Shown here: positions 1 to 16,709 of the stretch, piece by piece
How the letters are laid out: every line of letters begins with the position of its first letter
Numbering within the stretch: position 1 is the first letter of the stretch
Origin: a virus
Direction: 5' to 3' (one strand)
Virus record (IMG/VR): IMGVR_UViG_3300045988_069484
Span: 1 to 16,709 of that record
Length of the DNA stretch: 16,709 nucleotides
The notes under the pieces: generated by a model
The model's database searches: none
The model's input: only the letters and a program-made list of their open reading frames with translations
Told to the model about the DNA's origin: nothing
Made by a program: the position numbers and the translations under genes

Positions 1-84
1 TTTGGTATTCCGCGAATCTCGAAAATCGTAGCTTCCCCATGCACCTTTCTGCGGTACGCAGTGCGTCCGTTCGCTACGCTCACT
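1..84. repeat. Left inverted terminal repeat. It is mosaic: 1-30 perfect, 31-45 divergent, 46-84 near-perfect. This is the presumed protein-primed replication origin.
   Basis: The reverse complement of 16680-16709 is identical to 1-30. The reverse complement of 16625-16663 matches 46-84 with one mismatch (position 76). The intervening 15/16 nt differ. Similarity beyond position 84 is only patchy. Confidence 0.9.
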
Positions 85-251
85 ACTCCACTTCGTGCTA
101 TCGCACTACGTTCACTTAAATGGGTGCGCACCGTTCGCGCTTTGCGCTTACTCACCTATACTCGCTCGCGTCCGTCGCTCGCACCTGCGGTGGGCTGTTT
201 GTTATTGTATTTATAAAGTACAATAATATACAATTAATTTATACAAATCTA

Positions 252-280
252 TTGACATTAAAAAGGAACAATGCTATAAT
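252..280 (+). promoter_or_regulatory. Consensus sigma-A promoter P1 (left early)
   Basis: TTGACA at 252-257, a 17-bp spacer ending in TGC (extended -10), and TATAAT at 275-280. It lies upstream of the first ORFs. Confidence 0.75.
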
Positions 281-1094: not shown

Positions 1095-1123
1095 TTGACA
1101 TTTCAAGTAACATCTGATATAAT
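1095..1123 (+). promoter_or_regulatory. Consensus sigma-A promoter P2 (replication operon)
   Basis: TTGACA at 1095-1100, a 17-bp spacer ending in TGA, and TATAAT at 1118-1123. Confidence 0.75.
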
Positions 1124-1128
1124 TAATA

Positions 1129-1310
1129 ATGTAAGGAAGATAAAAAATTTTTTCCAACTTACATACCACACCATACGGGCGGTGCCCACAGCATCGTCCA
1201 CTCACAAAAAATAACAGATATTCCGACACCCATGTAGGCGAAAAAAATCGGTGGCAACGTGTAAAGGTTCGATTCCTTTTATCTGATTCGGCTTCAAATA
1301 GAAGTCGCTC
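1129..1310 (+). ncRNA. Candidate structured 5' leader or ncRNA with a tRNA-like T-arm/acceptor module
   Basis: There is no convincing ORF between P2 and the RBS at about 1345. Three structures are visible:
- A hairpin, ATGTAAG (1129-1135) paired with CTTACAT (1158-1164).
- A T-arm, AAAGG-TTCGATT-CCTTT (1263-1279), closed by a 6-bp stem of CAGATA (1215-1220) with TATCTG (1280-1285).
- A hairpin at 1289-1307. Confidence 0.3.
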
Positions 1311-1360
1311 ATTCAGCAGTCTAGCAAGCACAAACAAAATGAAAAGAGGTGAAAGGCAAA

Positions 1361-1672
1361 ATGGCAAGAGCAAGAAAAGTAACAAGAACAATTTCTTCAA
1401 CTAAGGTAATCGTTATGTGTGTAGACACAGAGACAGCTAAGGTTAACAACTACGAGGTAACAATCGCAGGTGCTTACACAGATGATAAGAAGCTGATGAA
1501 AGCAGTCACTAAAGTAGTAGAGACAGAAACGCTTAAACCAGTATCAGTTGTTTCAACAGAAGTTATCGAGATATTGTATGGAATGGATGAACAGAAGTTT
1601 ATCGAAATGGCAGATGTATTACCGCCAAGAGACAAAAAAGAAGTAGATAAAAATGCAGATGTAGAAGCATAA
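1361..1672 (+). CDS. phi29 p6-like double-stranded DNA-binding protein (candidate), 103 aa
   Basis: ATG at 1361 follows AGAGGTG (1345-1351); the ORF track starts it at an upstream GTG. It is the first gene of the replication operon, has an acidic C-terminal tail, and matches phi29 gene 6 in size and position. The assignment rests on synteny and recalled similarity only. Confidence 0.4.
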   Translation: MARARKVTRTISSTKVIVMCVDTETAKVNNYEVTIAGAYTDDKKLMKAVTKVVETETLKPVSVVSTEVIEILYGMDEQKFIEMADVLPPRDKKEVDKNADVEA

Positions 1673-1697: not shown

Positions 1698-2057
1698 ATG
1701 AGTAAAATCACAATCACAAAAACAAGTAGAGAGTTAACAGAAGTAGAACAGTATCTTATGACAATGGACGCAGGAATTACATCCATGAAAGATGTAGCAG
1801 ACGGCACTTCAATTCCAGTAGATGCATACATTGAATATAAGGACACAAAGAATGACGGAACAGAGGCAGAGCTTCTTTCAATCATTACAGTTGACGGAAA
1901 GGTATATTCAACACAGTCCGCAACTTTCAAGAGTTCTTTAAAGTCAATTCATGAGTTGATGCACGGTAAACCGTACGCAATTGTAAAACGTAGCGGAGAA
2001 ACAAAAGCAGGTAGACCATTTGTTGACTGTGGTCTTGATGTAAACTCAGTAAAATAA
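1698..2057 (+). CDS. phi29 p5-like single-stranded DNA-binding protein (candidate), 119 aa
   Basis: It has a strong RBS (AAGGAG). It sits between the p6-like and terminal-protein genes, as in phi29. The segment ADGTSIPVDAYIEYK...ITVDGKVYSTQS resembles the phi29 p5 pattern (DGT.I...A...YK....DG..YS..S) as I recall it. Confidence 0.5.
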   Translation: MSKITITKTSRELTEVEQYLMTMDAGITSMKDVADGTSIPVDAYIEYKDTKNDGTEAELLSIITVDGKVYSTQSATFKSSLKSIHELMHGKPYAIVKRSGETKAGRPFVDCGLDVNSVK

Positions 2058-2158: not shown

Positions 2159-2950
2159 TTGAAAAAGAGCAAATCAAAGTATAGTCAGTACTATAAGCAA
2201 TATCAGCGCAAAGTATCAGCATTAAGAAAACAGAATATTGAACTCCGTGGCGCGAACGTATACCAAACAGAAACCCAGTTGCGTAAATGGGGTATCCAAG
2301 GAAGAGACTTAGCAAAGATAACAAGACAGTTAAAAGCAGATATAAAGAATCTTTCAAAACAGGAAGCCTATTCAACAGCAACAGGGGAAATCTCAACCGT
2401 TGGTAAACTTAAACACGAACTTGCTTCTGAACGTGCAAAGCGTAGTGCAGAGACAAGAAAGCGTAATAAAGAATCTGCTAGGGAATTTTGGACTAGTGAT
2501 AATCTACCAACTACACACGATTTAGATGGCGAATATCATTTGAATCAGCCACAGTTGGGGGATATCACAAATAGCAACTTTATTACAGAGTTTTTAAGTC
2601 GTATAACATCACCAATTCCAACAGAGACTATATACGGCAATAAAAGAAAGAACGCTAATATAGAAAGAGCGCAAGAAGCGCAGTCAGCTCTATTAGCACT
2701 TTATCGCAATACTTTAAGTAAAGATGGTGAAATAGCTGTAGGAGAACGCCTTGCGAATAACTGGGATGCAATAAAGTTGCACTTGGAAGTAGTTTTAACC
2801 GATTCAAAAGGCGTGAATGTTGCTTCTTCATTGGAAGCTATTGGAGAAATTATTAGTGGTAGGACATTATCTGTTGTAGAACGAGATGCCTTAAATGATG
2901 AACAGGAATCGCTTTATTCATGGGATATAGAGGATAACACTTATGAATAG
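2159..2950 (+). CDS. Candidate terminal protein (DNA-priming protein)
   Basis: It lies immediately upstream of the DNA polymerase and overlaps it, as in phi29 gene 3. The N-terminus is basic and the C-terminus acidic. I place the start at TTG 2159, 8 nt after AGAGGTG (2144-2150), because the track's upstream extension (2108-) runs through the terminator hairpin. Confidence 0.55.
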   Translation: MKKSKSKYSQYYKQYQRKVSALRKQNIELRGANVYQTETQLRKWGIQGRDLAKITRQLKADIKNLSKQEAYSTATGEISTVGKLKHELASERAKRSAETRKRNKESAREFWTSDNLPTTHDLDGEYHLNQPQLGDITNSNFITEFLSRITSPIPTETIYGNKRKNANIERAQEAQSALLALYRNTLSKDGEIAVGERLANNWDAIKLHLEVVLTDSKGVNVASSLEAIGEIISGRTLSVVERDALNDEQESLYSWDIEDNTYE

Positions 2951-4943
2951 TAAACGCACAACAAGAATGTTCATGTGCGACTTTGAAACCACAGTATACG
3001 ACAATCAAGACCACACAGAAGTGTGGGCAGTTGCCATTGTAGAACTATTCACAGAGAATGTTACAATCCTACATCGTATTGAAGATATGTTCACGTACTT
3101 TCGTGCGTTAGATACAAACATCATAGCATTTTTCCACAACCTAAAATTTGACGGTGCTTTCATCCTTGATTACTTACTAGCGCAGAAGAAATATCCACAG
3201 GCATTAAATAACGATAATGGCGTGTATTCATGGAAAAAGAACAAAGAAATCCAAACCAATGAAGTCCGTTATAGCATATCAGATAAGGGTATGTGGTATT
3301 CTATTACACAGAAACTACCAAACAATAAGTTATTGGAGTTCCGTGACTCTTTGAAGTTGTTACCATTTTCCGTTGAAGTTATTGGTAAATCATTCGCAAC
3401 GAAACATAAAAAGCTAGATATGGAATACACTGGCTATAGATATGCAGGATGTGAGATTACTGAAAAGGAGAGAGAGTACATTGCAAATGATGTTCTTGTA
3501 GTAAAGGAAGCACTTGAAATCATGCTAGAACAGGGACACGATAAATCTACTATTGGGTCATGCTGTTTGGAAGAGTTCAAAAAAGGCTATGACAAGACAG
3601 ATTACGCACAACTATTTCCCGACATATACAAGATAGAAACAGGTATAACAAAGTATCCTACTTTTGGTGATTACATCCGAAAATCATATCGTGGTGGATG
3701 GTGTTACCTTGTAAGAGGAAAAGAAAATAAAATATACTATAAAGGCACAACAGCAGATGTTAATAGCCTATATCCATCTATGATGCACTCCGACAGCGGT
3801 AACTTTTACCCAGTTGGAAAACCACACTATTGGAGTGGAAACTTTATACATGAAGAAGCCTTAAAAAAAGATCCACAAGGTGATCCAAGATATTTTTTCT
3901 TACGTATCCGAACAAGGTTTCACGTGAAACATGGCTACTTGCCATTTATACAGATAAAAGGGTCTCCGCTCTATCGTGGTACAGAAATGCTAGAAACAAG
4001 TGACGTATACAGTAAGAAATACGACAAGTATTTTCCGTATTACTATGATAGCGGGAATAACAGACATGAAGCTATTGTAGAAATGGTTGTTACTTGTACC
4101 GATTATTATTTGATGCTAGAACACTATGACTTATATGATTTTGAAATCATAGATGGCGTATGGTTCTACGCCATGAAAGGTATCTATGACGAATATATTA
4201 ATAAGTATGCAGAGATTAAGCAGAAAAGCAAGGGCGCACAGCGTACTCTTGCAAAGCTGTTTCTTAATAATCTCTATGGTAAGCAGGCATCTTCTAAAGA
4301 TAGTTCATTCAAGATAGCGTATGTAAAAGATGATGAATCACTTGGTTTTATAAGGCAGGAAGAAAACAACAAGAAAGCAGGCTACATTCCTTGTGGTTCT
4401 GCCATTACATCATATGCAAGAGAGTTTACAATCCGAGCCGCCCAAAAGAATTACCATGGCGTTAATGAAAGAGGTTTTATATACGCCGATACTGATTCTA
4501 TTCACTGTGATTTACTGCCCGATGAAATTGTTGGTATAAGAGAACACCCAACGGAATTTAACTCATGGTCATTAGAGTCGTGTTGGGATATTGCGACATT
4601 TACAAGACAGAAAACATATATCGAACATGTAACGCATGAAAACAGAGAACCAATAGAAGAACCGTTTTATGATGTGAAGTGTGCAGGTATGCCTAGTAAA
4701 TGCAAGAATCTGTTTGTGCTATCCATGCAAGGTAACGCAGATATTAACGGTTATAAAGAACCAAGAACAGGAACACACAAGGAATGGTCAGAAGAAGAAA
4801 AACAGTTCTTATTTAAAGGTAGTGCCCCTATTAAACGTGATTTATCAGATTTTAAGATAGGCTTAAAAGTGCCAGACAAGTTACGACCTAAAAGAATGAG
4901 GGGCGGCGTGTTACTCGTAGAAACAAGTTATGAAATGAGGTAG
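2943..4943 (+). CDS. Protein-primed family-B DNA polymerase (phi29 gp2-like)
   Basis: All expected motifs are present: Exo I CDFETT, Exo II FHNLKFDGAF, Exo III YIANDV, motif A DVNSLYPS, motif B KLFLNNLYGK, motif C YADTDS, and the KxY region RQKTYIE. A TPR1-like segment (GYLPFIQIKGS) is also present. Confidence 0.95.
   Translation: MNSKRTTRMFMCDFETTVYDNQDHTEVWAVAIVELFTENVTILHRIEDMFTYFRALDTNIIAFFHNLKFDGAFILDYLLAQKKYPQALNNDNGVYSWKKNKEIQTNEVRYSISDKGMWYSITQKLPNNKLLEFRDSLKLLPFSVEVIGKSFATKHKKLDMEYTGYRYAGCEITEKEREYIANDVLVVKEALEIMLEQGHDKSTIGSCCLEEFKKGYDKTDYAQLFPDIYKIETGITKYPTFGDYIRKSYRGGWCYLVRGKENKIYYKGTTADVNSLYPSMMHSDSGNFYPVGKPHYWSGNFIHEEALKKDPQGDPRYFFLRIRTRFHVKHGYLPFIQIKGSPLYRGTEMLETSDVYSKKYDKYFPYYYDSGNNRHEAIVEMVVTCTDYYLMLEHYDLYDFEIIDGVWFYAMKGIYDEYINKYAEIKQKSKGAQRTLAKLFLNNLYGKQASSKDSSFKIAYVKDDESLGFIRQEENNKKAGYIPCGSAITSYAREFTIRAAQKNYHGVNERGFIYADTDSIHCDLLPDEIVGIREHPTEFNSWSLESCWDIATFTRQKTYIEHVTHENREPIEEPFYDVKCAGMPSKCKNLFVLSMQGNADINGYKEPRTGTHKEWSEEEKQFLFKGSAPIKRDLSDFKIGLKVPDKLRPKRMRGGVLLVETSYEMR
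3917..3930. repeat. Palindrome GTTTCACGTGAAAC, copy A (inside the polymerase gene)
   Basis: It is a perfect 14-bp palindrome. The same 14-mer recurs at 7456-7469 and 10541-10554. Confidence 0.9.
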
Positions 4944-5350: not shown

Positions 5351-5382
5351 AAAAGGTACAATGCATAAGCAAAGTACCTTTT
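5351..5382. terminator. Bidirectional intrinsic terminator between the convergent early operon and the ATPase gene
   Basis: Stem AAAAGGTAC (5351-5359) pairs with GTACCTTTT (5374-5382). T-rich tracts follow the hairpin on both strands: TTTTATT on plus and TTGTTTTTTT on minus. Confidence 0.7.
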
Positions 5383-5446
5383 ATTATATCACAAACTACT
5401 GGTGAAAACGGTCTAAAGCCTGTTAGGGCAAGGGAGCAACCCCGAC

Positions 5447-5495
5447 CATAGAAACAGCGATTTCTTTCACTCGTGCGTTCTGTTTCTATGTTTTT
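5447..5495 (+). terminator. Second plus-strand hairpin with T-run (back-up terminator or end of a small RNA)
   Basis: An 11-bp stem pairs CATAGAAACAG (5447-5457) with CTGTTTCTATG (5480-5490). The loop is 22 nt and a TTTTT run follows at 5491-5495. Confidence 0.5.
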
Positions 5496-5520
5496 CGCTT
5501 TCTGACAGTAGATGATACCA

Positions 5521-6552
5521 TTAATAACTAAGAGCCTGTAACACAGCTTCTTTGCACTGTAAGTCTTTGAATCGGAAACAACCACGTTCAAAGAAGTACC
5601 TCATATTAGACAAGAACAAGTCGTTGCTCTTTAGCATCACATAATTGACGTTGTGATCATCTGTCGTAATACTGATTCTATAAGGATATGTTTTATCTGC
5701 TCTATCATCACAGTAGATAATACCTAAGTTCATATACTCTTTAATCGCATAGTCTCTACCAAGATACCGAAGTGTTGCAACATAAGTACACTCTCCAACA
5801 GGTTTCTCAATAAATGCATTGCTATCATTAAGGTAAGTAGCTTGTGCAGAATAAGCCACGTAATCATCATTGATAAATGCACGATTGAACCCACTTTCTG
5901 TCTGAGCCTTACTTGCGCTTTCGTTATAACCCTGCTCTAGCACGAACCCATTCCCACGTAAGAATTTCGTATCAGATTTAAGTCTGTTTGAAATCTTCAT
6001 GGCAATATAATATGGGTTAATCAGTGAAACAGGGTTCGCCATCATATATACAGGGACATAACGCACTTGTTTTCCCTGTCCACGGGCAATAGAGGTGTGT
6101 ATAGAAATGAATTTCTTAACTTCATCTGAGCAGTAACGGTTTGTTTCACTTTGAAACTCGTCAAAAATAAGACAGCTGATATCACTGAACATATGAGAGT
6201 TCTTCTTAACGGCATCCGCATTGTTAAGTGCCATAGCATAACCACAGGAAACGTTATTCAAAAATAACTCATGAAACTTCCCATGCATCATTGGTTTGCT
6301 TGTCATTTCATATTCATTGAAAAATAATTCTTTGATATCTTTAAAAAATTTCTCTGCTACACCACTAAGCTCGTAATCGTAACGATAGAGCAATCCAAAC
6401 TTTTCGCCCTTTGACAAAAATTTATTAACTACCAATTTGCCAAAGTAAGTTGTCTTACCGCCAGTACGGTTACTTGTTACCATGTATATTTCAGGTCTTT
6501 TATTATTTAGGTCTAATAGACTTAATAGTTTTGTACCGTCATAATAACTCAT
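5521..6552 (-). CDS. DNA encapsidation ATPase (phi29 gp16-like)
   Basis: Walker A is present as NRTGGKTT, and a Walker B-like CLIFDEF also occurs. The size (343 aa) is typical. RBS is AGAGGTG. It is the only convincing minus-strand gene. Confidence 0.8.
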   Translation of the reverse strand: MSYYDGTKLLSLLDLNNKRPEIYMVTSNRTGGKTTYFGKLVVNKFLSKGEKFGLLYRYDYELSGVAEKFFKDIKELFFNEYEMTSKPMMHGKFHELFLNNVSCGYAMALNNADAVKKNSHMFSDISCLIFDEFQSETNRYCSDEVKKFISIHTSIARGQGKQVRYVPVYMMANPVSLINPYYIAMKISNRLKSDTKFLRGNGFVLEQGYNESASKAQTESGFNRAFINDDYVAYSAQATYLNDSNAFIEKPVGECTYVATLRYLGRDYAIKEYMNLGIIYCDDRADKTYPYRISITTDDHNVNYVMLKSNDLFLSNMRYFFERGCFRFKDLQCKEAVLQALSY

Positions 6553-6569: not shown

Positions 6570-6598
6570 ATTATAGCATAAAATAGACAAACTGTCAA
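6570..6598 (-). promoter_or_regulatory. Consensus sigma-A promoter for the ATPase gene
   Basis: The minus strand reads TTGACA (6598-6593), a 17-bp spacer ending in TGC, then TATAAT (6575-6570). Confidence 0.75.
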
Positions 6599-6651: not shown

Positions 6652-6680
6652 TTGACAAACATACATTATGATGATATAAT
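6652..6680 (+). promoter_or_regulatory. Consensus sigma-A promoter for the lysis and structural (late) operon
   Basis: TTGACA at 6652-6657, a 17-bp spacer ending in TGA, and TATAAT at 6675-6680. Confidence 0.75.
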
Positions 6681-6911: not shown

Positions 6912-7659
6912 TGTGCACGGTGGACACTCTTTAAAATGCCGTGGTGCTAGCGATTTACTGGATGAAGTAAATGAAGATAGAGCTGTAAAAAATAAGTTAA
7001 TCGAACTATTAAGAGCGAATGGCAATACAGTATATGATTGTACAGATGACTACAGTACAACACAGAACAAAAATTTATCTTCTATTGTTTCTAAGTGTAA
7101 CGCTCATACTGTGGACTTGGATATATCAATTCACTTAAATAGCGCAAGAAACGACAGAGTAGGTGATGGAAAATGTGGTGGTGTAGAGGTCTACGGATAT
7201 GATGATAGAATCTATGGTGTAGCTTATAAGATTGCAGAGAATATTGCTAACACACTTGGTATTGGGTTTCACGGTTCTCCCGTGAAATACGAAAAAGATT
7301 TACGTGTCCTAAGAGAAACAAAAGCAAAAGCGATTCTCATTGAATGCTGTTTTGTAGATGATAGAGACGATGTAAGCCGTTGGGATTCTACAAAGTGTGC
7401 TATGGCTATTGCATCTGCTCTTGGGTGTAAAACAAACGTGAAACCACAGACAAATGTTTCACGTGAAACATATTTTCCAGTTTTTAAGTTAAATAGCTGT
7501 TCCATTGTAGATTGCTTAAGATCAATCAATGTGGATTCAAGTTTTGTGTATCGTAAGCGTATTGCAAGTAAGAACGGTGTAGCGAACTATAAAGGCTCAG
7601 CACCACAGAATGACAAACTGGTTTCACTTGGTAAGAAAGGAAAGCTTATTAAACCGTAA
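6898..7659 (+). CDS. Endolysin: N-acetylmuramoyl-L-alanine amidase (Amidase_3 type) with a C-terminal putative wall-binding module
   Basis: Amidase_3-like signatures are HGGHS, ISIHLNS and ILIECCFVDD. It follows the holin. The C-terminal roughly 60 aa (..YKGSAPQNDKLVSLGKKGKLIKP) resembles modules seen in clostridial lysins. Confidence 0.8.
   Translation: MATYNVHGGHSLKCRGASDLLDEVNEDRAVKNKLIELLRANGNTVYDCTDDYSTTQNKNLSSIVSKCNAHTVDLDISIHLNSARNDRVGDGKCGGVEVYGYDDRIYGVAYKIAENIANTLGIGFHGSPVKYEKDLRVLRETKAKAILIECCFVDDRDDVSRWDSTKCAMAIASALGCKTNVKPQTNVSRETYFPVFKLNSCSIVDCLRSINVDSSFVYRKRIASKNGVANYKGSAPQNDKLVSLGKKGKLIKP
7454..7471. repeat. Palindrome ATGTTTCACGTGAAACAT, copy B (18 bp, in the endolysin linker)
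   Basis: It is a perfect 18-bp palindrome. The stretch 7450-7470 is identical to 10535-10555 (21 nt). Confidence 0.9.
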
Positions 7660-10518: not shown

Positions 10519-10556
10519 GTGTTTCACGTGGGATACAAATGTTTCACGTGAAACAC
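10519..10556 (+). promoter_or_regulatory. Strong hairpin after the capsid gene, with no U-tract
   Basis: GTGTTTCACGTG (10519-10530) pairs with CACGTGAAACAC (10545-10556), giving a 12-bp stem and a 14-nt loop. It contains palindrome copy C (10540-10555). Confidence 0.6.
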
Positions 10557-14331: not shown

Positions 14332-16404
14332 ATGTTTGATTTTGACAGAAATGAATGTAGAGTAGGAAATCCAGTTCTACCTCTGACATATGACGATTCA
14401 TTAAGTTATGAAGAGCAGATTGCAAAACTGTATAAAATGCTTAATGAACTGAAAGCAGAAAGAATTTACAACAATACATTCAACATCACAGACAACACAA
14501 AACTAGCGGATGCCGTTATTCCAAGGAAACTGATTCGTAACTACACTTATGATATGATGGTAGAAGATATCGACACACTGATGCTGAACTACCCGAAAGT
14601 ACGCAAAAAGATTATCGGTACATCTGTTCTTGGTTTACCGTTGATTGCTATGGAGTACGGAACGGAAACAGCTACGAGACATATGTTTGTTTTCAATGGC
14701 TTTCATGGTACAGATTGTAGTGCTAGTATCGCAATTGCACAGATGGAAGTGTTAGCAAAGAACGCTACTTATGGTGGGGTAGATATGTGGAGTGAGATTC
14801 TTGACAATGACACTTGCATCCACGTAATTCCAATGGCGAACCCTGATGCTTGGATGCTTGGGTTACAGGGATACAGTTACTTCAACGACATTCCTGAAGC
14901 AATCAAGACAAAGATTGAGGAACTGACAACAGACTATATCAGAAACCATGCAAAAGATGAACCAAACGGTTCAACATGGGATGTTGAAAGCAGAACAGAC
15001 CTTGAAGATTATATTCGCTCTCTTGGTGGTGACCCAAGTGTCAGCTATGAAGCCTATGTGTTCAGAGAGAAAGACTTGCACGCTTGGAAAGCGAATGCGA
15101 ACGGTATTGATTTACACTATAACTGGTGGACAGACTCAATGAAGAAGACTGTTGATGTTGCATTAAAGGGCGTAAACTATGGTCACGCTGATGCGTATGT
15201 CTATGGTGCGCAGGGTATTAGAGCTTACGTTGATGAAAATGCTTCATATAGAGCTTATATCTCACAATATGAAAGAAGTGACGGAAATTATTACTTCACA
15301 TTCATGAATTATCATCAAAAAGGACCAACTAACATTTGGAACTACAGATTGAAAGGGTTACAGAACAATCGTAACTTTGACTGTGGTGTACAACTGTGTG
15401 AGCTAATGCAAGTACCATACTCACCACAGGTGGGTAATCAGAGTACACCAATCGGTTTCAGTGCGTGGGCAGGCATCAACTACGCAGGAAATTACACTTT
15501 AAGCTATACTAATGAAGTAGGTTGGAAACACGTGAAAAAACGTGGTGACTGGTGGGATGATGAAAACAGTGATATCGTGAGAAGTCCTGTACCTGATAAC
15601 CAGTGGAACGATATTTACACAAGTAACAAAGCTGTGTTCATTTGGATGTTACGTTACTATGCTAGTTTGAGGGATGTGTGGAACAGGCATCAATATTTAA
15701 GCGAATATAACTTAAAAGACAAATACACAGATGAGCGTTTCGCTATTCCTAGCATGGCTATGATGATGAATATTGCTAATAAAGTAGGTGCTTACTACAC
15801 GTCATTAAGTGAAATGGGATTCAGCAACTATGGTATTAGTGCATCTTTAGATGATATTTTAACAAAGCTTAACTGGGAAGCATCTGCAACATTTAATGTA
15901 GGGTCTTCTATGACTGTAGCAAAAGATTTGCCTACTTGGGCATTCAACAAGAGTGGTAACATGAAAGTATTCCCTGTTAGTTCAAAGCAGATGATGTGCG
16001 AGTTCTATGTAAACAAAACAACATTTATTTATAGATGTCTGTATATTAAGGACAGTGACACAAAAATGCACAGAACAGAGTGGGTCAACGCTACACCGAC
16101 CACGACTGACTATGTAAGCATGGGTATTGCTGAAGGTGTTGTTAATAGTAGTGTGAAAGCCATTGCAAGTAAAGTGCCTATTTATCATGAGCTTATTATT
16201 GATTTGAATAAGGATGATAACAATGTGGCGGGGTTACCGAGTAATGTGGGTGACTACTATAGACTGAAAATAACGGGACACAGACCGAATAACAGAGTGG
16301 AGATTACTGATATCTCTAGTGGTAATATTTGGGTGAACCATTATAGCAGAACTAACGATGAATTGCAGACATGGTATAAGATACAAGCAAACCCTTTAAC
16401 ATAA
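14332..16404 (+). CDS. Tail appendage / receptor-binding protein with an internal M14-like (gamma-D-glutamyl peptidase-like) domain
   Basis: The N-terminal anchor motif LTYDDSLSYEEQIAKLYKMLNEL is typical of Gram-positive phage fibre and appendage N-termini. M14-like blocks are IGTSVLGLPL, NGFHGTD, IPMANPDAW, WKANANGIDLHYNW, YHQKGPTNIW and YTNEVGW. It occupies the position of phi29 gene 12. Confidence 0.7.
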   Translation: MFDFDRNECRVGNPVLPLTYDDSLSYEEQIAKLYKMLNELKAERIYNNTFNITDNTKLADAVIPRKLIRNYTYDMMVEDIDTLMLNYPKVRKKIIGTSVLGLPLIAMEYGTETATRHMFVFNGFHGTDCSASIAIAQMEVLAKNATYGGVDMWSEILDNDTCIHVIPMANPDAWMLGLQGYSYFNDIPEAIKTKIEELTTDYIRNHAKDEPNGSTWDVESRTDLEDYIRSLGGDPSVSYEAYVFREKDLHAWKANANGIDLHYNWWTDSMKKTVDVALKGVNYGHADAYVYGAQGIRAYVDENASYRAYISQYERSDGNYYFTFMNYHQKGPTNIWNYRLKGLQNNRNFDCGVQLCELMQVPYSPQVGNQSTPIGFSAWAGINYAGNYTLSYTNEVGWKHVKKRGDWWDDENSDIVRSPVPDNQWNDIYTSNKAVFIWMLRYYASLRDVWNRHQYLSEYNLKDKYTDERFAIPSMAMMMNIANKVGAYYTSLSEMGFSNYGISASLDDILTKLNWEASATFNVGSSMTVAKDLPTWAFNKSGNMKVFPVSSKQMMCEFYVNKTTFIYRCLYIKDSDTKMHRTEWVNATPTTTDYVSMGIAEGVVNSSVKAIASKVPIYHELIIDLNKDDNNVAGLPSNVGDYYRLKITGHRPNNRVEITDISSGNIWVNHYSRTNDELQTWYKIQANPLT

Positions 16405-16435
16405 AAGGGATTTATCCTAGCAATATGTAAAATGA

Positions 16436-16470
16436 GAAACGCCCTAGTGTGTAATGCACTGGGGTGTTTT
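16436..16470 (+). terminator. Late-operon intrinsic terminator
   Basis: Stem CCCTAGTG (16442-16449) pairs with CACTGGGG (16457-16464). The loop is 7 nt. The stem is extendable by A-T and G-T pairs and is followed by TGTTTT. Confidence 0.65.
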
Positions 16471-16624
16471 GAATGTACAGAGGTGGGTGAGTGCAAAGCA
16501 CGAATGGAGAGTATCTATTGCAGTGAACGTAGCACGACAGTGGTTCTGTACAGCAGTGAGCCGAACGAAGTGAGGTGTAGTGTATACTTAAGTGAGCATA
16601 GGAGCGACAGCGAAGATGCGGAAC

Positions 16625-16709
16625 AGTGAGCGAAGCGAACGGACGCACTGCGTACCGCAGAAAGTGTGCTCATATGGTATACGATTTTCGAGATTCGCGG
16701 AATACCAAA
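16625..16709. repeat. Right inverted terminal repeat (mosaic, partner of 1-84)
   Basis: 16680-16709 is the exact reverse complement of 1-30. 16625-16663 is the reverse complement of 46-84 with one mismatch. The 16-nt patch at 16664-16679 differs from left positions 31-45. Confidence 0.9.

What the first reader, a model, noticed from the sequence alone, without database searches (positions are those of the whole stretch)
1095..1360. A consensus promoter drives a roughly 200-nt structured non-coding leader with a tRNA-like T-arm/acceptor module (candidate ncRNA or pRNA analogue)
P2 (1095-1123) is a perfect extended -10 promoter, yet the first credible start codon (ATG 1361) is about 230 nt downstream and no supported ORF lies between them. 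The interval contains three structures:
- A 5' hairpin, 1129-1135 paired with 1158-1164.
- A canonical T-arm, AAAGG-TTCGATT-CCTTT (1263-1279). It is closed by a 6-bp acceptor-like stem, CAGATA 1215-1220 with TATCTG 1280-1285. This gives a 73-nt unit of exact tRNA size, but without a D-loop GG or any anticodon stem.
- A 7-bp hairpin at 1289-1307.

GGTTCGATTCC is an 11-mer unlikely to occur by chance in this window. phi29-family Bacillus phages need a promoter-driven roughly 170-nt packaging RNA (pRNA) encoded near the left end, and no pRNA is established for most non-Bacillus relatives. A tRNA-like module could also serve as an RNase P/Z processing signal that releases an upstream RNA, as a CCA-adding or aminoacylation mimic, or as a decoy against tRNA-targeting defences. 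All functional readings here are speculative.
Basis: partly seen in the sequence, partly recalled or inferred. Interest (0 to 1): 0.7.

Follow-up and report, generated by a model that had tools for sequence, protein, structure and literature searches.

The report
tRNA-like processing module before phage p6-like gene
The non-coding leader holds a conserved tRNA look-alike with no anticodon arm, sitting just upstream of a DNA-binding-protein gene in hundreds of small gut phages; it most likely tells the host's tRNA-trimming enzymes where to cut the message, and it is not the phage's packaging RNA.

Summary
A perfect extended -10 promoter (1095-1123) drives a roughly 230-nt leader with no credible ORF. 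The leader holds hairpin 1129-1164, hairpin 1177-1199, a tRNA-like structure (TLS, 1215-1286) and hairpin 1289-1307.

On its own the TLS is only weakly better than chance: 16% of shuffled windows give one. Comparison settles it.
- In 42 close relatives the TLS is 94% identical, against 65-75% at third codon positions.
- A clade with 64% DNA polymerase identity, and the cultured Clostridium phage CS229P2, carry very different TLS versions in the same place, directly upstream of p6-like genes.
- Across 35 distinct variants the acceptor+T helix stays 11-13 bp, is 99.7% paired, and 10 of 11 pairs show compensatory changes.
- The T-loop is always TTCRANN and no CCA is encoded.
- A hairpin starts 1-4 nt after the acceptor helix in all but one variant.
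- The anticodon arm is absent, or replaced by 29-65-nt inserts.

Best reading (confidence 0.55): an RNase P/RNase Z processing signal that releases a hairpin-capped mRNA for the p6-like protein, analogous to plant mitochondrial t-elements.

The pRNA reading is not supported. A better pRNA candidate lies at 5386-5518 on the minus strand, directly after the packaging ATPase gene.

The parts
1095..1123 (+). Sigma-A type promoter with extended -10 (TTGACA, 17 nt, TG-n-TATAAT). The inferred transcription start is near 1130.
   Evidence: It scores 12/12 with an upstream TG. TTGACA and TGATATA are invariant in 42 relatives.
1129..1164 (+). 5'-terminal hairpin hp1, carrying the motif GTAAGGAAGAT.
   Evidence: It is in the minimum-free-energy fold. 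It is kept in relatives through U-A to U-G changes. The same element, GTAAnnAAGAT in a hairpin at the transcript start, occurs in b-type leaders of the distant clade.
1177..1199 (+). G/C-rich hairpin hp2 (GGGCGGTGC / GCATCGTCC).
   Evidence: It is in the minimum-free-energy and alifold structures. The equivalent hairpin in b-type leaders has a different sequence.
1215..1220 (+). TLS acceptor-like stem, 5' strand (CAGATA). The inferred RNase P cleavage site lies between 1214 and 1215.
   Evidence: It pairs with 1280-1285. In L023 the C-G pair has changed to A-U on both sides.
1221..1262 (+). TLS middle part, standing in for the D-arm and variable region, with no anticodon arm. It contains CCG...CGG and GG dinucleotides. 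Its fold is unresolved.
   Evidence: The TLS as a whole (1215-1286) is 94% identical across relatives. Two alternative pairings are possible and neither can be tested, because the relevant positions do not vary.
1263..1279 (+). T-arm AAAGG-TTCGATT-CCTTT, with the canonical positions G53, T54, T55, C56, R57, A58 and C61.
   Evidence: Seen directly in the sequence. In L029 and L035 an A-U pair has changed to C-G on both sides. TTCRANN and the G-C closing pair are invariant in 35 variants.
1280..1286 (+). Acceptor-like stem, 3' strand (TATCTG), plus discriminator A1286. The inferred RNase Z cleavage site is after 1286. The next bases are TTC, not CCA.
1289..1307 (+). Hairpin hp3 (CGGCTTC-AAATA-GAAGTCG), which starts 3 nt after the discriminator. 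It is the inferred 5' protective cap of the processed mRNA.
   Evidence: Three of its seven pairs show compensatory changes in the close clade. An equivalent hairpin starts 1-4 nt after the acceptor helix in all but one variant (L165b).
1346..1351 (+). Shine-Dalgarno sequence GAGGTG, 9 nt before the ATG.
   Evidence: AAAGAGGTG is invariant in 42 relatives.
1361..1672 (+). Gene for the putative p6-like dsDNA-binding protein (103 aa). It is the constant downstream neighbour of the TLS.
   Evidence: It matches phrog_6370 'dsDNA binding protein' at E = 7.7e-5. It lies directly upstream of a Phi29-type SSB gene (PF17427). Pfam gives no hit for this protein itself.
1698..2057 (+). Phi29-type SSB gene in the same operon. 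An intrinsic terminator follows at 2106-2126.
   Evidence: PF17427 at 28 bits, above its cut-off of 25. The terminator was found.

Best explanation
The module at 1215-1286 is a tRNA-derived mimic. It keeps only what tRNA end-processing enzymes read:
- an 11-13-bp coaxial acceptor/T helix;
- a canonical T-loop;
- a GG-containing D-loop analogue that forms the elbow.

It has no anticodon arm.

Inferred mechanism:
1. Host RNase P cuts at the 5' side of the acceptor stem (1214/1215). This removes the promoter-proximal leader; in the intercistronic versions it removes the upstream cistron.
2. Host RNase Z cuts after the discriminator (A1286). No CCA anti-determinant is encoded there.
3. The downstream product begins with UU followed immediately by hairpin 1289-1307. 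That hairpin shields the monophosphorylated 5' end from 5'-to-3' exonucleolytic decay (RNase J type).
4. The result is a stable, well-translated mRNA for the p6-like protein, which is inferred to be needed in large amounts, and for the SSB.

Shown here: the structure, its conservation and covariation, its fixed position relative to the p6-like gene, and the hairpin spacing.

Inferred: every cleavage event and the stabilising effect.
For: 1. Purifying selection. The TLS has 0.94 pairwise identity, against 0.65-0.75 at third codon positions of the two downstream genes and 0.45 upstream of the promoter.

2. Covariation.
- In the close clade, compensatory changes occur in the acceptor stem, the T-stem and hairpin hp3.
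- Across 35 distinct TLS variants from three lineages the 11-bp acceptor+T helix is 99.7% paired.
- 10 of its 11 pairs changed on both sides.
- The covariation score is 1.01 against 0.21 in shuffles (0 of 500 reach it).
- Slid registers give only 35-48% pairing.

3. The total helix length stays 11-13 bp while its split between acceptor and T-stem varies: 6+5, 5+7, 7+5 and 6+6. This is what enzymes that measure from the elbow would require.

4. The variable part is exactly the part these enzymes ignore.
- The anticodon arm is absent in the window clade, the a-type and CS229P2.
- In the b-type it is replaced by 29-65-nt inserts.
- One b-type TLS still scores 41.5 bits on Rfam tRNA (gathering cut-off 29), with a 61-nt insert at the anticodon stem-loop.
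- ARAGORN in intron mode assigns 10 different amino-acid identities in its 16 calls on homologous b-type elements, so no anticodon is conserved.

5. Fixed context.
- The TLS precedes the p6-like gene in 42 of 42 window-clade genomes.
- The automated scan recovers it upstream of 31 of 31 second paralogues and at least 21 of 29 first paralogues of the distant clade.
- Cultured phage CS229P2, whose p6-like protein is 36% identical, has one too.
- The a-type has no promoter of its own and fills an 88-nt gap between two cistrons.
- In 9-10-kb loci of the window clade GGTTCRANNCC occurs essentially only at this site, and in the distant clade it occurs upstream of each p6-like gene.

6. The 3' flank. 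No CCA occupies positions 74-76. T-rich bases follow instead, and a 5-7-bp hairpin starts 1-4 nt after the acceptor helix in all but one variant.

7. Precedent.
- In plant mitochondria, t-elements with a perfect GGTTCRANYCC arm upstream of cox1 direct RNase Z cleavage, and that cleavage creates the mRNA 5' end (PMC1920247).
- In Firmicutes, 5' roadblocks protect RNA from the RNase J1 5' exonuclease (PMC3997798).

8. A Firmicute host is plausible. The relative CS229P2 infects Clostridium symbiosum, and the promoters match the sigma-A consensus.
Against: - No RNA ends have been mapped. Every cleavage is inferred.
- The acceptor stem is 6 bp here, not 7, and the -1 base is A, not the U that I recall bacterial RNase P preferring.
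- A hairpin only 2-3 nt from the RNase Z site might hinder the enzyme rather than follow from its action.
- The 42-nt middle part is more conserved (the TLS is 94% identical overall) than a bare processing signal would seem to need. Some b-type inserts carry conserved sequence of their own. Both hint at an extra function for the excised RNA.
- Hairpins hp1 and hp2, which processing would discard, keep the same architecture between clades. This is unexplained.
- A few first paralogues lack the TLS: L138, L147, L156 and L163.
- For the acceptor part of the composite helix, the 5' partner was chosen by complementarity. Its pairing percentage is therefore partly circular. The T-stem and the within-clade aligned changes are not.
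Confidence: 0.55

Rival explanations
1. The excised TLS is itself the product. It would be a stable, tRNA-shaped small RNA, possibly CCA-tailed, that acts in trans. For example, it could be a decoy or sponge for host factors or defence nucleases that recognise the acceptor/elbow. Or it could be a natural tRNA scaffold carrying a variable cargo in place of the anticodon arm. Its placement on the p6-like transcript would simply ensure early, high expression.
For: - The middle part of the window TLS is strongly conserved in sequence.
- b-type inserts carry conserved motifs with covarying hairpins, for example TCATGCG-hairpin-CGAGGTCnAGnACACyGG.
- Excised plant t-elements accumulate and receive non-encoded C/A residues.
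Against: - The middle part differs completely between lineages: 8 nt, 14-16 nt, 21 nt, 42 nt and 60-87 nt. No common cargo exists.
- Strict linkage to the p6-like gene, including both paralogues in one genome, and the always-adjacent downstream hairpin point to a role in cis.
- There is no anticodon loop, so it cannot act as a decoy for anticodon nucleases.
Confidence: 0.15
2. The structure acts in cis on the intact mRNA and is not excised at both ends. One version is that only RNase P cuts and the TLS stays as a base-paired 5' cap. Another is that it serves as an operator bound by a protein, for example autoregulation by the p6-like protein or the SSB, or that it enhances translation.
For: - Its position in the 5' UTR of the p6-like gene is fixed.
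- The window clade is highly conserved in sequence.
- A possible CACC (1170-1173) / GGTG (1348-1351) pairing with the ribosome-binding site appears in the alifold structure.
- From my own knowledge, phage SSB-type proteins are known to autoregulate through leader structures, for example T4 gp32.
Against: - A protein operator would not need a canonical T-loop, an elbow GG and a helix of 12 +/- 1 bp kept across lineages while everything else changes.
- The anti-SD pairing is only 4 bp, never varies, and has no counterpart in the a-type or b-type leaders.
- The conserved T-rich bases and the closely spaced hairpin after the discriminator are not explained.
Confidence: 0.17
3. This is the first reader's headline idea: the promoter-driven leader RNA (about 1130-1310) is the functional analogue of the phi29 prohead/packaging RNA.
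For: - It is promoter-driven and structured, has roughly the right size, and lies in the early region of a phi29-like genome that encodes a gp16-type ATPase.
Against: - The Rfam pRNA model gives no match.
- The element also occurs as a 40-45-nt promoterless minihelix between cistrons.
- Its architecture is not conserved between clades, although they share the packaging machinery.
- A separate conserved, covarying RNA with a closing helix and a multi-hairpin junction lies directly after the ATPase gene in all three lineages.
Confidence: 0.03
4. It is a decaying tRNA pseudogene or a chance motif with no function.
For: - In the single sequence the motif is not significant: 16% of shuffles give one.
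- ARAGORN and Rfam find no tRNA in the window.
Against: - The TLS is 94% identical, against 65-75% at third codon positions.
- Compensatory changes are pervasive.
- It is kept at the same position in lineages whose neighbouring protein is only 36-50% identical.
Confidence: 0.02

Closest known systems
Plant mitochondrial t-elements (tRNA-like elements that define mRNA ends, e.g. upstream of Arabidopsis cox1; PMC1920247)
   Same: - They are non-decoding tRNA-like folds with a perfectly kept GGTTCRANYCC T-arm and an acceptor stem.
- They are embedded in mRNA leaders or spacers.
- The downstream mRNA 5' end is made by RNase Z and the upstream 3' end by RNase P.
- No CCA is encoded.
   Different: - They occur in organelles, not in a bacteriophage.
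- They are scattered across various genes rather than tied to one gene family.
- No conserved protective hairpin immediately follows the cut.
- In the phage elements processing is inferred, not mapped.
mascRNA / MALAT1 and MEN-beta tRNA-like elements (my own knowledge; Rfam family mascRNA-menRNA)
   Same: - A tRNA-like module inside a longer transcript is cut by RNase P and RNase Z.
- Cleavage separates a small tRNA-like RNA from a long RNA, whose new end is protected by an adjacent structure.
   Different: - They are eukaryotic and nuclear.
- The protected product is the upstream RNA, through a 3' triple helix, not a downstream mRNA with a 5' hairpin.
- No Rfam match was found here.
tRNA punctuation of polycistronic transcripts (animal mitochondria; bacterial tRNA-mRNA co-transcripts such as the tufB operon; my own knowledge)
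   Same: tRNA-shaped units between or ahead of cistrons serve as cleavage marks for RNase P/Z.
   Different: Those units are genuine decoding tRNAs. Here the anticodon arm is missing or replaced, and no anticodon is conserved.
tRNA-like domain of tmRNA
   Same: It has an acceptor stem, a T-arm and a D-loop analogue with no anticodon arm, and it is processed by tRNA enzymes.
   Different: - ARAGORN detects no tmRNA.
- There is no G3:U70 pair, no tag reading frame and no pseudoknots.
- This element lies in an mRNA leader.
phi29 pRNA (Rfam RF00044)
   Same: It is a small structured RNA encoded by a phi29-like phage and transcribed from a strong early promoter.
   Different: - There is no sequence or structure match.
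- This element is tRNA-shaped and tied to the p6-like gene.
- It is promoterless in some genomes.
- A separate RNA next to the ATPase gene fits the pRNA role better.

Membership tests
tRNA (Rfam RF00005; ARAGORN) | Detected as a tRNA by standard covariance or heuristic models | tested here: not met
   - ARAGORN finds no gene in the window or in 14 distant loci.
- Rfam gives no hit in 1080-1400 even at E <= 10.
- Homologous b-type elements differ: L142 scores 41.5 bits, above the cut-off of 29, but with a 61-nt insert in place of the anticodon stem-loop.
tRNA (Rfam RF00005; ARAGORN) | Anticodon stem with a 7-nt loop and a conserved anticodon | tested here: not met
   - The window has 42 nt between the acceptor and the T-arm, with no anticodon stem.
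- ARAGORN in intron mode b-type homologues with 10 different amino-acid identities.
tRNA (Rfam RF00005; ARAGORN) | Acceptor stem stacked on a 5-bp T-stem with T-loop TTCRANN and a G53-C61 closing pair | tested here: met
   It is seen directly in the sequence at 1215-1220, 1263-1279 and 1280-1285, and it covaries in 35 variants.
tRNA-like processing elements (t-elements / mascRNA type) | Non-decoding tRNA-like fold with a conserved T-arm and acceptor stem, embedded in a longer transcript | tested here: met
   It lies in a 5' UTR or an intercistronic gap.
tRNA-like processing elements (t-elements / mascRNA type) | RNA termini that coincide with the 5' and 3' ends of the element (RNase P / RNase Z cleavage) | not testable with these tools
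   No transcript-end data are available. The only indirect support is that no CCA is encoded and a hairpin starts 1-4 nt after the predicted cut.
tRNA-like processing elements (t-elements / mascRNA type) | Excised element detectable, often with non-encoded CCA-type additions | not testable with these tools
   This needs small-RNA sequencing or a Northern blot from infected cells.
phi29 pRNA (RF00044) | Match to the pRNA covariance model | tested here: not met
   No hit at E <= 10 in the whole window or in 1080-1400.
phi29 pRNA (RF00044) | Conserved architecture that co-varies with the packaging machinery across related phages | tested here: not met
   The region between the acceptor and the T-arm ranges from 8 to 87 nt with unrelated folds, and the upstream hairpins are absent in a-type copies.
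phi29 pRNA (RF00044) | Binds proheads and is required for packaging | not testable with these tools
   This is a biochemical test.
tmRNA | tRNA-like domain plus tag reading frame; G3:U70 | tested here: not met
   ARAGORN's tmRNA search is negative. The acceptor pairs are C-G, A-U, G-C, A-U, U-A and A-U.
T-box or other known cis-regulatory leaders | Match to a curated leader or riboswitch model | tested here: not met
   The only Rfam hit in 1080-1400 is a chance-level snoRNA match at E = 7.6. No U-tract terminator follows hairpin 1289-1307.

The most novel reading that the evidence does not exclude
These small gut phages use a natural 'tRNA scaffold'. The module would be excised by RNase P and RNase Z, CCA-tailed, and accumulate as an abundant anticodon-less tRNA mimic that acts in trans. 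It could titrate a host factor or defence enzyme that recognises the tRNA acceptor/elbow. In the b-type versions it could display a variable RNA cargo where the anticodon arm used to be. The same cuts would also mature the p6-like mRNA.
Probability: 0.15. Interest if true: 0.85.

Novelty: new variant of a known kind. Interest (0 to 1): 0.6.

Why it matters
If the mechanism holds, this would be the first family I could find in the searched literature and in Rfam of tRNA-like 'punctuation' elements in a bacteriophage.

- A 17-kb virus would be borrowing the host's tRNA end-processing enzymes to cut out and stabilise the message for one of its most needed early proteins.
- The family shows a graded series, from a near-complete tRNA that passes Rfam's tRNA threshold down to a 40-nt minihelix. 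That series is a natural experiment on the minimal substrate for RNase P and RNase Z.
- It explains why tRNA finders may sporadically report 'tRNAs' in some phi29-like genomes.
- It offers compact natural parts for processing polycistronic RNA in Firmicutes.
- It can be tested directly, because Clostridium phage CS229P2, which infects Clostridium symbiosum, carries a version.

Separately, rejecting the pRNA reading exposed a conserved RNA next to the packaging ATPase gene. That RNA bears on the long-standing question of whether phi29-like phages outside Bacillus have a packaging RNA.

Tried and rejected
- ARAGORN with standard settings found nothing in the window or in 14 distant loci.
- Rfam on the whole window and on 1080-1400 gave nothing relevant.
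- The weak Clostridiales-1 hit at 16379-16516 (23.8 bits, cut-off 48) overlaps the right terminal repeat. I dropped it.
- An exact gapped DNA pattern, CCGACACC..GGTTCGATTCC, in IMG/VR recovered only the same close clade plus unrelated real tRNAs. It did not extend the family.
- Small-ORF explanation: rejected.
- Minus-strand 109-aa ORF 1071-1400: rejected. It has low-complexity sequence and is broken by the indels seen in relatives.
- Anti-Shine-Dalgarno pairing CACC/GGTG from alifold: only 4 invariant bp, and absent in other lineages, so I did not adopt it.
- A cloverleaf with a D-stem CCGA/TCGG versus the minimum-free-energy pairing ACAC/GTGT for 1221-1262: this cannot be decided, because the positions do not vary.
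- ARAGORN in relaxed, intron and mitochondrial modes gives inconsistent and spurious identities. I used this only as evidence that no anticodon is conserved.
- Alifold on a mixed-clade alignment of the pRNA candidate failed through misalignment. The close clade alone worked.
- Literature searches found no description of this element. The phi29-like phage review only notes that some clusters have predicted tRNAs.
Full report
**What the window is.** The 16,709-bp window is a complete linear phi29-like phage genome.
- It has inverted terminal repeats: 1-30 is perfectly complementary to 16680-16709, and the repeat continues in degenerate form to about 160 nt.
- The gene order is phi29-like:
  - a putative p6-like dsDNA-binding protein (1361-1672, phrog_6370, E = 7.7e-5);
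  - a Phi29-type SSB (1698-2057, PF17427);
  - a terminator (2106-2126);
  - a probable terminal protein;
  - a family-B DNA polymerase (2943-4943);
  - a gp16-type packaging ATPase on the minus strand (5521-6552, PF05894);
  - then lysis, capsid and tail genes.
- The nearest public record is an unannotated human faecal phage, MT835854, at 85% identity over 39% of the genome.
- A cultured relative, Clostridium phage CS229P2, infects Clostridium symbiosum.

**The observation.**
- The promoter at 1095-1123 is one of four perfect TTGACA-17-TGnTATAAT sites in the genome.
- From the inferred start near 1130 to ATG 1361 there is no credible ORF. Relatives differ by 1-nt indels in A-runs, which excludes coding.
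- The minimum-free-energy fold of 1128-1360 (-52.3 kcal/mol, z = -2.6) contains five elements:
  - hairpin 1129-1164;
  - hairpin 1177-1199;
  - the acceptor-like stem 1215-1220/1280-1285;
  - the T-arm 1263-1279;
  - hairpin 1289-1307.
- ARAGORN and Rfam find no tRNA or other family here.
- The module is not significant in isolation. The 11-mer is expected 0.1 times per window, and 16% of dinucleotide shuffles contain an equally good T-arm plus acceptor.

**Close relatives.** Forty IMG/VR genomes and MT835854 share the p6-like gene at 83-96% protein identity.
- In the alignment of the upstream 310 nt, the promoter hexamers, both upstream hairpins, the whole tRNA-like structure (TLS) and the ribosome-binding site are nearly invariant.
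- Sequence upstream of the promoter is mosaic, at 0.45 pairwise identity.
- The TLS has 0.94 pairwise identity. That equals second codon positions (0.95) and far exceeds third positions (0.65-0.75).
- RNAalifold recovers the same helices. Compensatory changes occur at:
  - the outermost acceptor pair (C-G to A-U in L023);
  - a T-stem pair (A-U to C-G in L029 and L035);
  - three pairs of hairpin 1289-1307.

**Distant relatives.** A second clade, with 63-64% DNA polymerase identity, usually has two p6-like genes. Nearly all of them are preceded by a TLS of a different build.
- The 'a-type' version has these features:
  - It lies in a short gap between two cistrons and has no promoter. In L135, for example, the upstream stop is at 482, the TLS at 489-528 and the ATG at 571.
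  - It is reduced to an acceptor stem, either a 3-4-bp mini-hairpin with a GNNGG loop or a single-stranded AAGGTGTA, and a T-arm. The whole element is 40-45 nt.
- The 'b-type' version has these features:
  - It has its own consensus promoter and the same two upstream hairpins as the window.
  - It is a near-complete tRNA: a 7-bp acceptor, a true D-arm (for example CAAC-AAATTGGTAA-GTTG) and a T-arm.
  - The anticodon loop is replaced by a 29-65-nt insert.
- One b-type element scores 41.5 bits on Rfam tRNA (cut-off 29), with a 61-nt insertion at the anticodon stem-loop.
- ARAGORN calls none of them in standard mode.
- In intron mode ARAGORN assigns ten different amino-acid identities in its 16 calls on homologous elements. 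No anticodon is therefore conserved.
- CS229P2, whose p6-like protein is only 36% identical, has yet another version in its 173-nt gap: CCCGGA, 21 nt containing GG, GAGGGG-TTCGACT-CCCCTC, TCCGGG, A.
- All versions fold as predicted on their own.

**What is constant.**
- I took the 11 base pairs nearest the T-loop, regardless of how they split between T-stem and acceptor stem. The 35 distinct variants are 99.7% paired.
- 10 of the 11 pairs changed on both sides. The covariation score is 1.01 against 0.21 in shuffles (0 of 500 reach it), and slid registers give 35-48% pairing.
- One caveat applies. The 5' acceptor strand was located by complementarity, so that half of the helix is partly circular. 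The T-stem half, and the compensatory acceptor changes at aligned columns within each clade, are not.
- The total helix length is 11-13 bp throughout, while the partition varies: 6+5, 5+7, 7+5 and 6+6.
- The T-loop is always TTCRANN closed by G-C.
- A GG-bearing D-loop analogue is present in most variants.
- No element encodes CCA. T-rich bases follow the discriminator, and a 5-7-bp hairpin with an A-rich loop begins 1-4 nt after the acceptor helix in all but one variant (L165b, 6 nt).
- GGTTCRANNCC occurs essentially only at these sites in the 9-10-kb loci.

**Interpretation.**
- The conserved features are exactly those read by RNase P, RNase Z and the CCA-adding enzyme: the elbow and a coaxial helix of about 12 bp. 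This statement about the enzymes rests on established knowledge.
- The parts those enzymes ignore are free to vary or vanish.
- The only constant neighbour is the downstream p6-like gene. The element works equally with a promoter upstream or a cistron upstream.
- I therefore read it as a tRNA-like processing signal. RNase P would detach whatever lies upstream. RNase Z would cut after A1286. The mRNA would then begin with UU plus hairpin 1289-1307, a 5' roadblock of the type that protects RNAs from RNase J1 in Firmicutes (PMC3997798).
- The closest precedent is the plant mitochondrial t-element. There a tRNA-like fold with a perfect GGTTCRANYCC arm in the cox1 leader directs RNase Z to create the mRNA 5' end (PMC1920247).
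- All cleavage steps are inferred. My confidence is 0.55.

**Open points.**
- The high sequence conservation of 1221-1262 is unexplained.
- The conserved inserts of some b-type elements are unexplained.
- So is the conservation of the two upstream hairpins.
- Together these leave room for a trans-acting role of the excised RNA (0.15), or for an uncleaved cis-regulatory role (0.17).

**The pRNA idea.** It is not supported for this leader, for the reasons above. In addition, a better candidate exists on the minus strand.
- Positions 5386-5518 start right after the ATPase stop codon and end at an intrinsic terminator. They fold at -57.1 kcal/mol with z = -5.2.
- Seven close relatives keep 41 pairs, 10 of them through compensatory changes.
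- The same architecture occurs at the same place in the distant clade and in CS229P2 (z = -4.1). It has a 5' GGUAUC / 3' GAUAUAA closing helix and an internal GUGAAAGA loop.
- It matches no Rfam family.

**Novelty.**
- Rfam 15 has no family for the leader module.
- Full-text searches found no description of it. A 2024 review of phi29-like phages only remarks that some clusters, including the one holding CS229P1, have predicted tRNAs. These may be the b-type elements.
- I class it as a new variant of a known kind, tRNA-like processing elements, found here in a new host system and with a characteristic downstream hairpin.

Noticed in passing
window 5386-5518, minus strand (terminator 5352-5382, minus): A conserved structured RNA lies immediately downstream of the gp16-type packaging ATPase gene and is a candidate pRNA. 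Its fold is -57.1 kcal/mol with z = -5.24. It has a 13-bp closing helix with a bulge, a second helix and three hairpins. In 7 relatives, 10 of its 41 pairs are kept through compensatory changes. The same place and architecture occur in the distant clade and in cultured Clostridium phage CS229P2 (L176:1217-1400 minus, z = -4.07). It has no Rfam match, including pRNA.
   Followed up: partly
window 3917-3932, 7454-7471, 10539-10555: A perfect palindrome, (A)TGTTTCACGTGAAACA(T), occurs three times. The same palindrome forms the loop of the terminator after the candidate pRNA in relatives L097, L124 and L129, and it sits directly after the ATPase stop codon in CS229P2. It may be a regulator binding site or a mobile hairpin.
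   Followed up: no
window 1-160 and 16550-16709: There are inverted terminal repeats. The first 30 nt are perfect and the match degenerates to 75-90% out to about 160 nt. They are unusually G+C-rich for this genome. This shows the window is a complete linear genome, probably protein-primed.
   Followed up: partly
window 16379-16516, + strand: There is a weak Rfam hit to Clostridiales-1 RNA (23.8 bits, cut-off 48, E = 0.15). It overlaps the right terminal repeat and is probably chance.
   Followed up: partly
window 252-280 (+), 6652-6680 (+), 6570-6598 (-): Three more perfect 12/12 extended -10 promoters are present. One is at the left end. The other two form a divergent pair between the ATPase gene and the late genes.
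   Followed up: no
L135 571-861 and 1877 onward; likewise most of L134-L166: The distant clade carries two paralogous p6-like genes. Each has its own, differently built tRNA-like element. L156 and L163 have a TLS, then a remnant of a p6-like start, then a second degenerate TLS before the gene.
   Followed up: partly
b-type elements, e.g. the L142 and L135 loci (alignment A5): The inserts that replace the anticodon loop contain conserved sequence (TCATGCG-hairpin-CGAGGTCnAGnACACyGG, or an 8-nt bulge UGRUCAGC) together with covarying hairpins. Their function is unknown.
   Followed up: no
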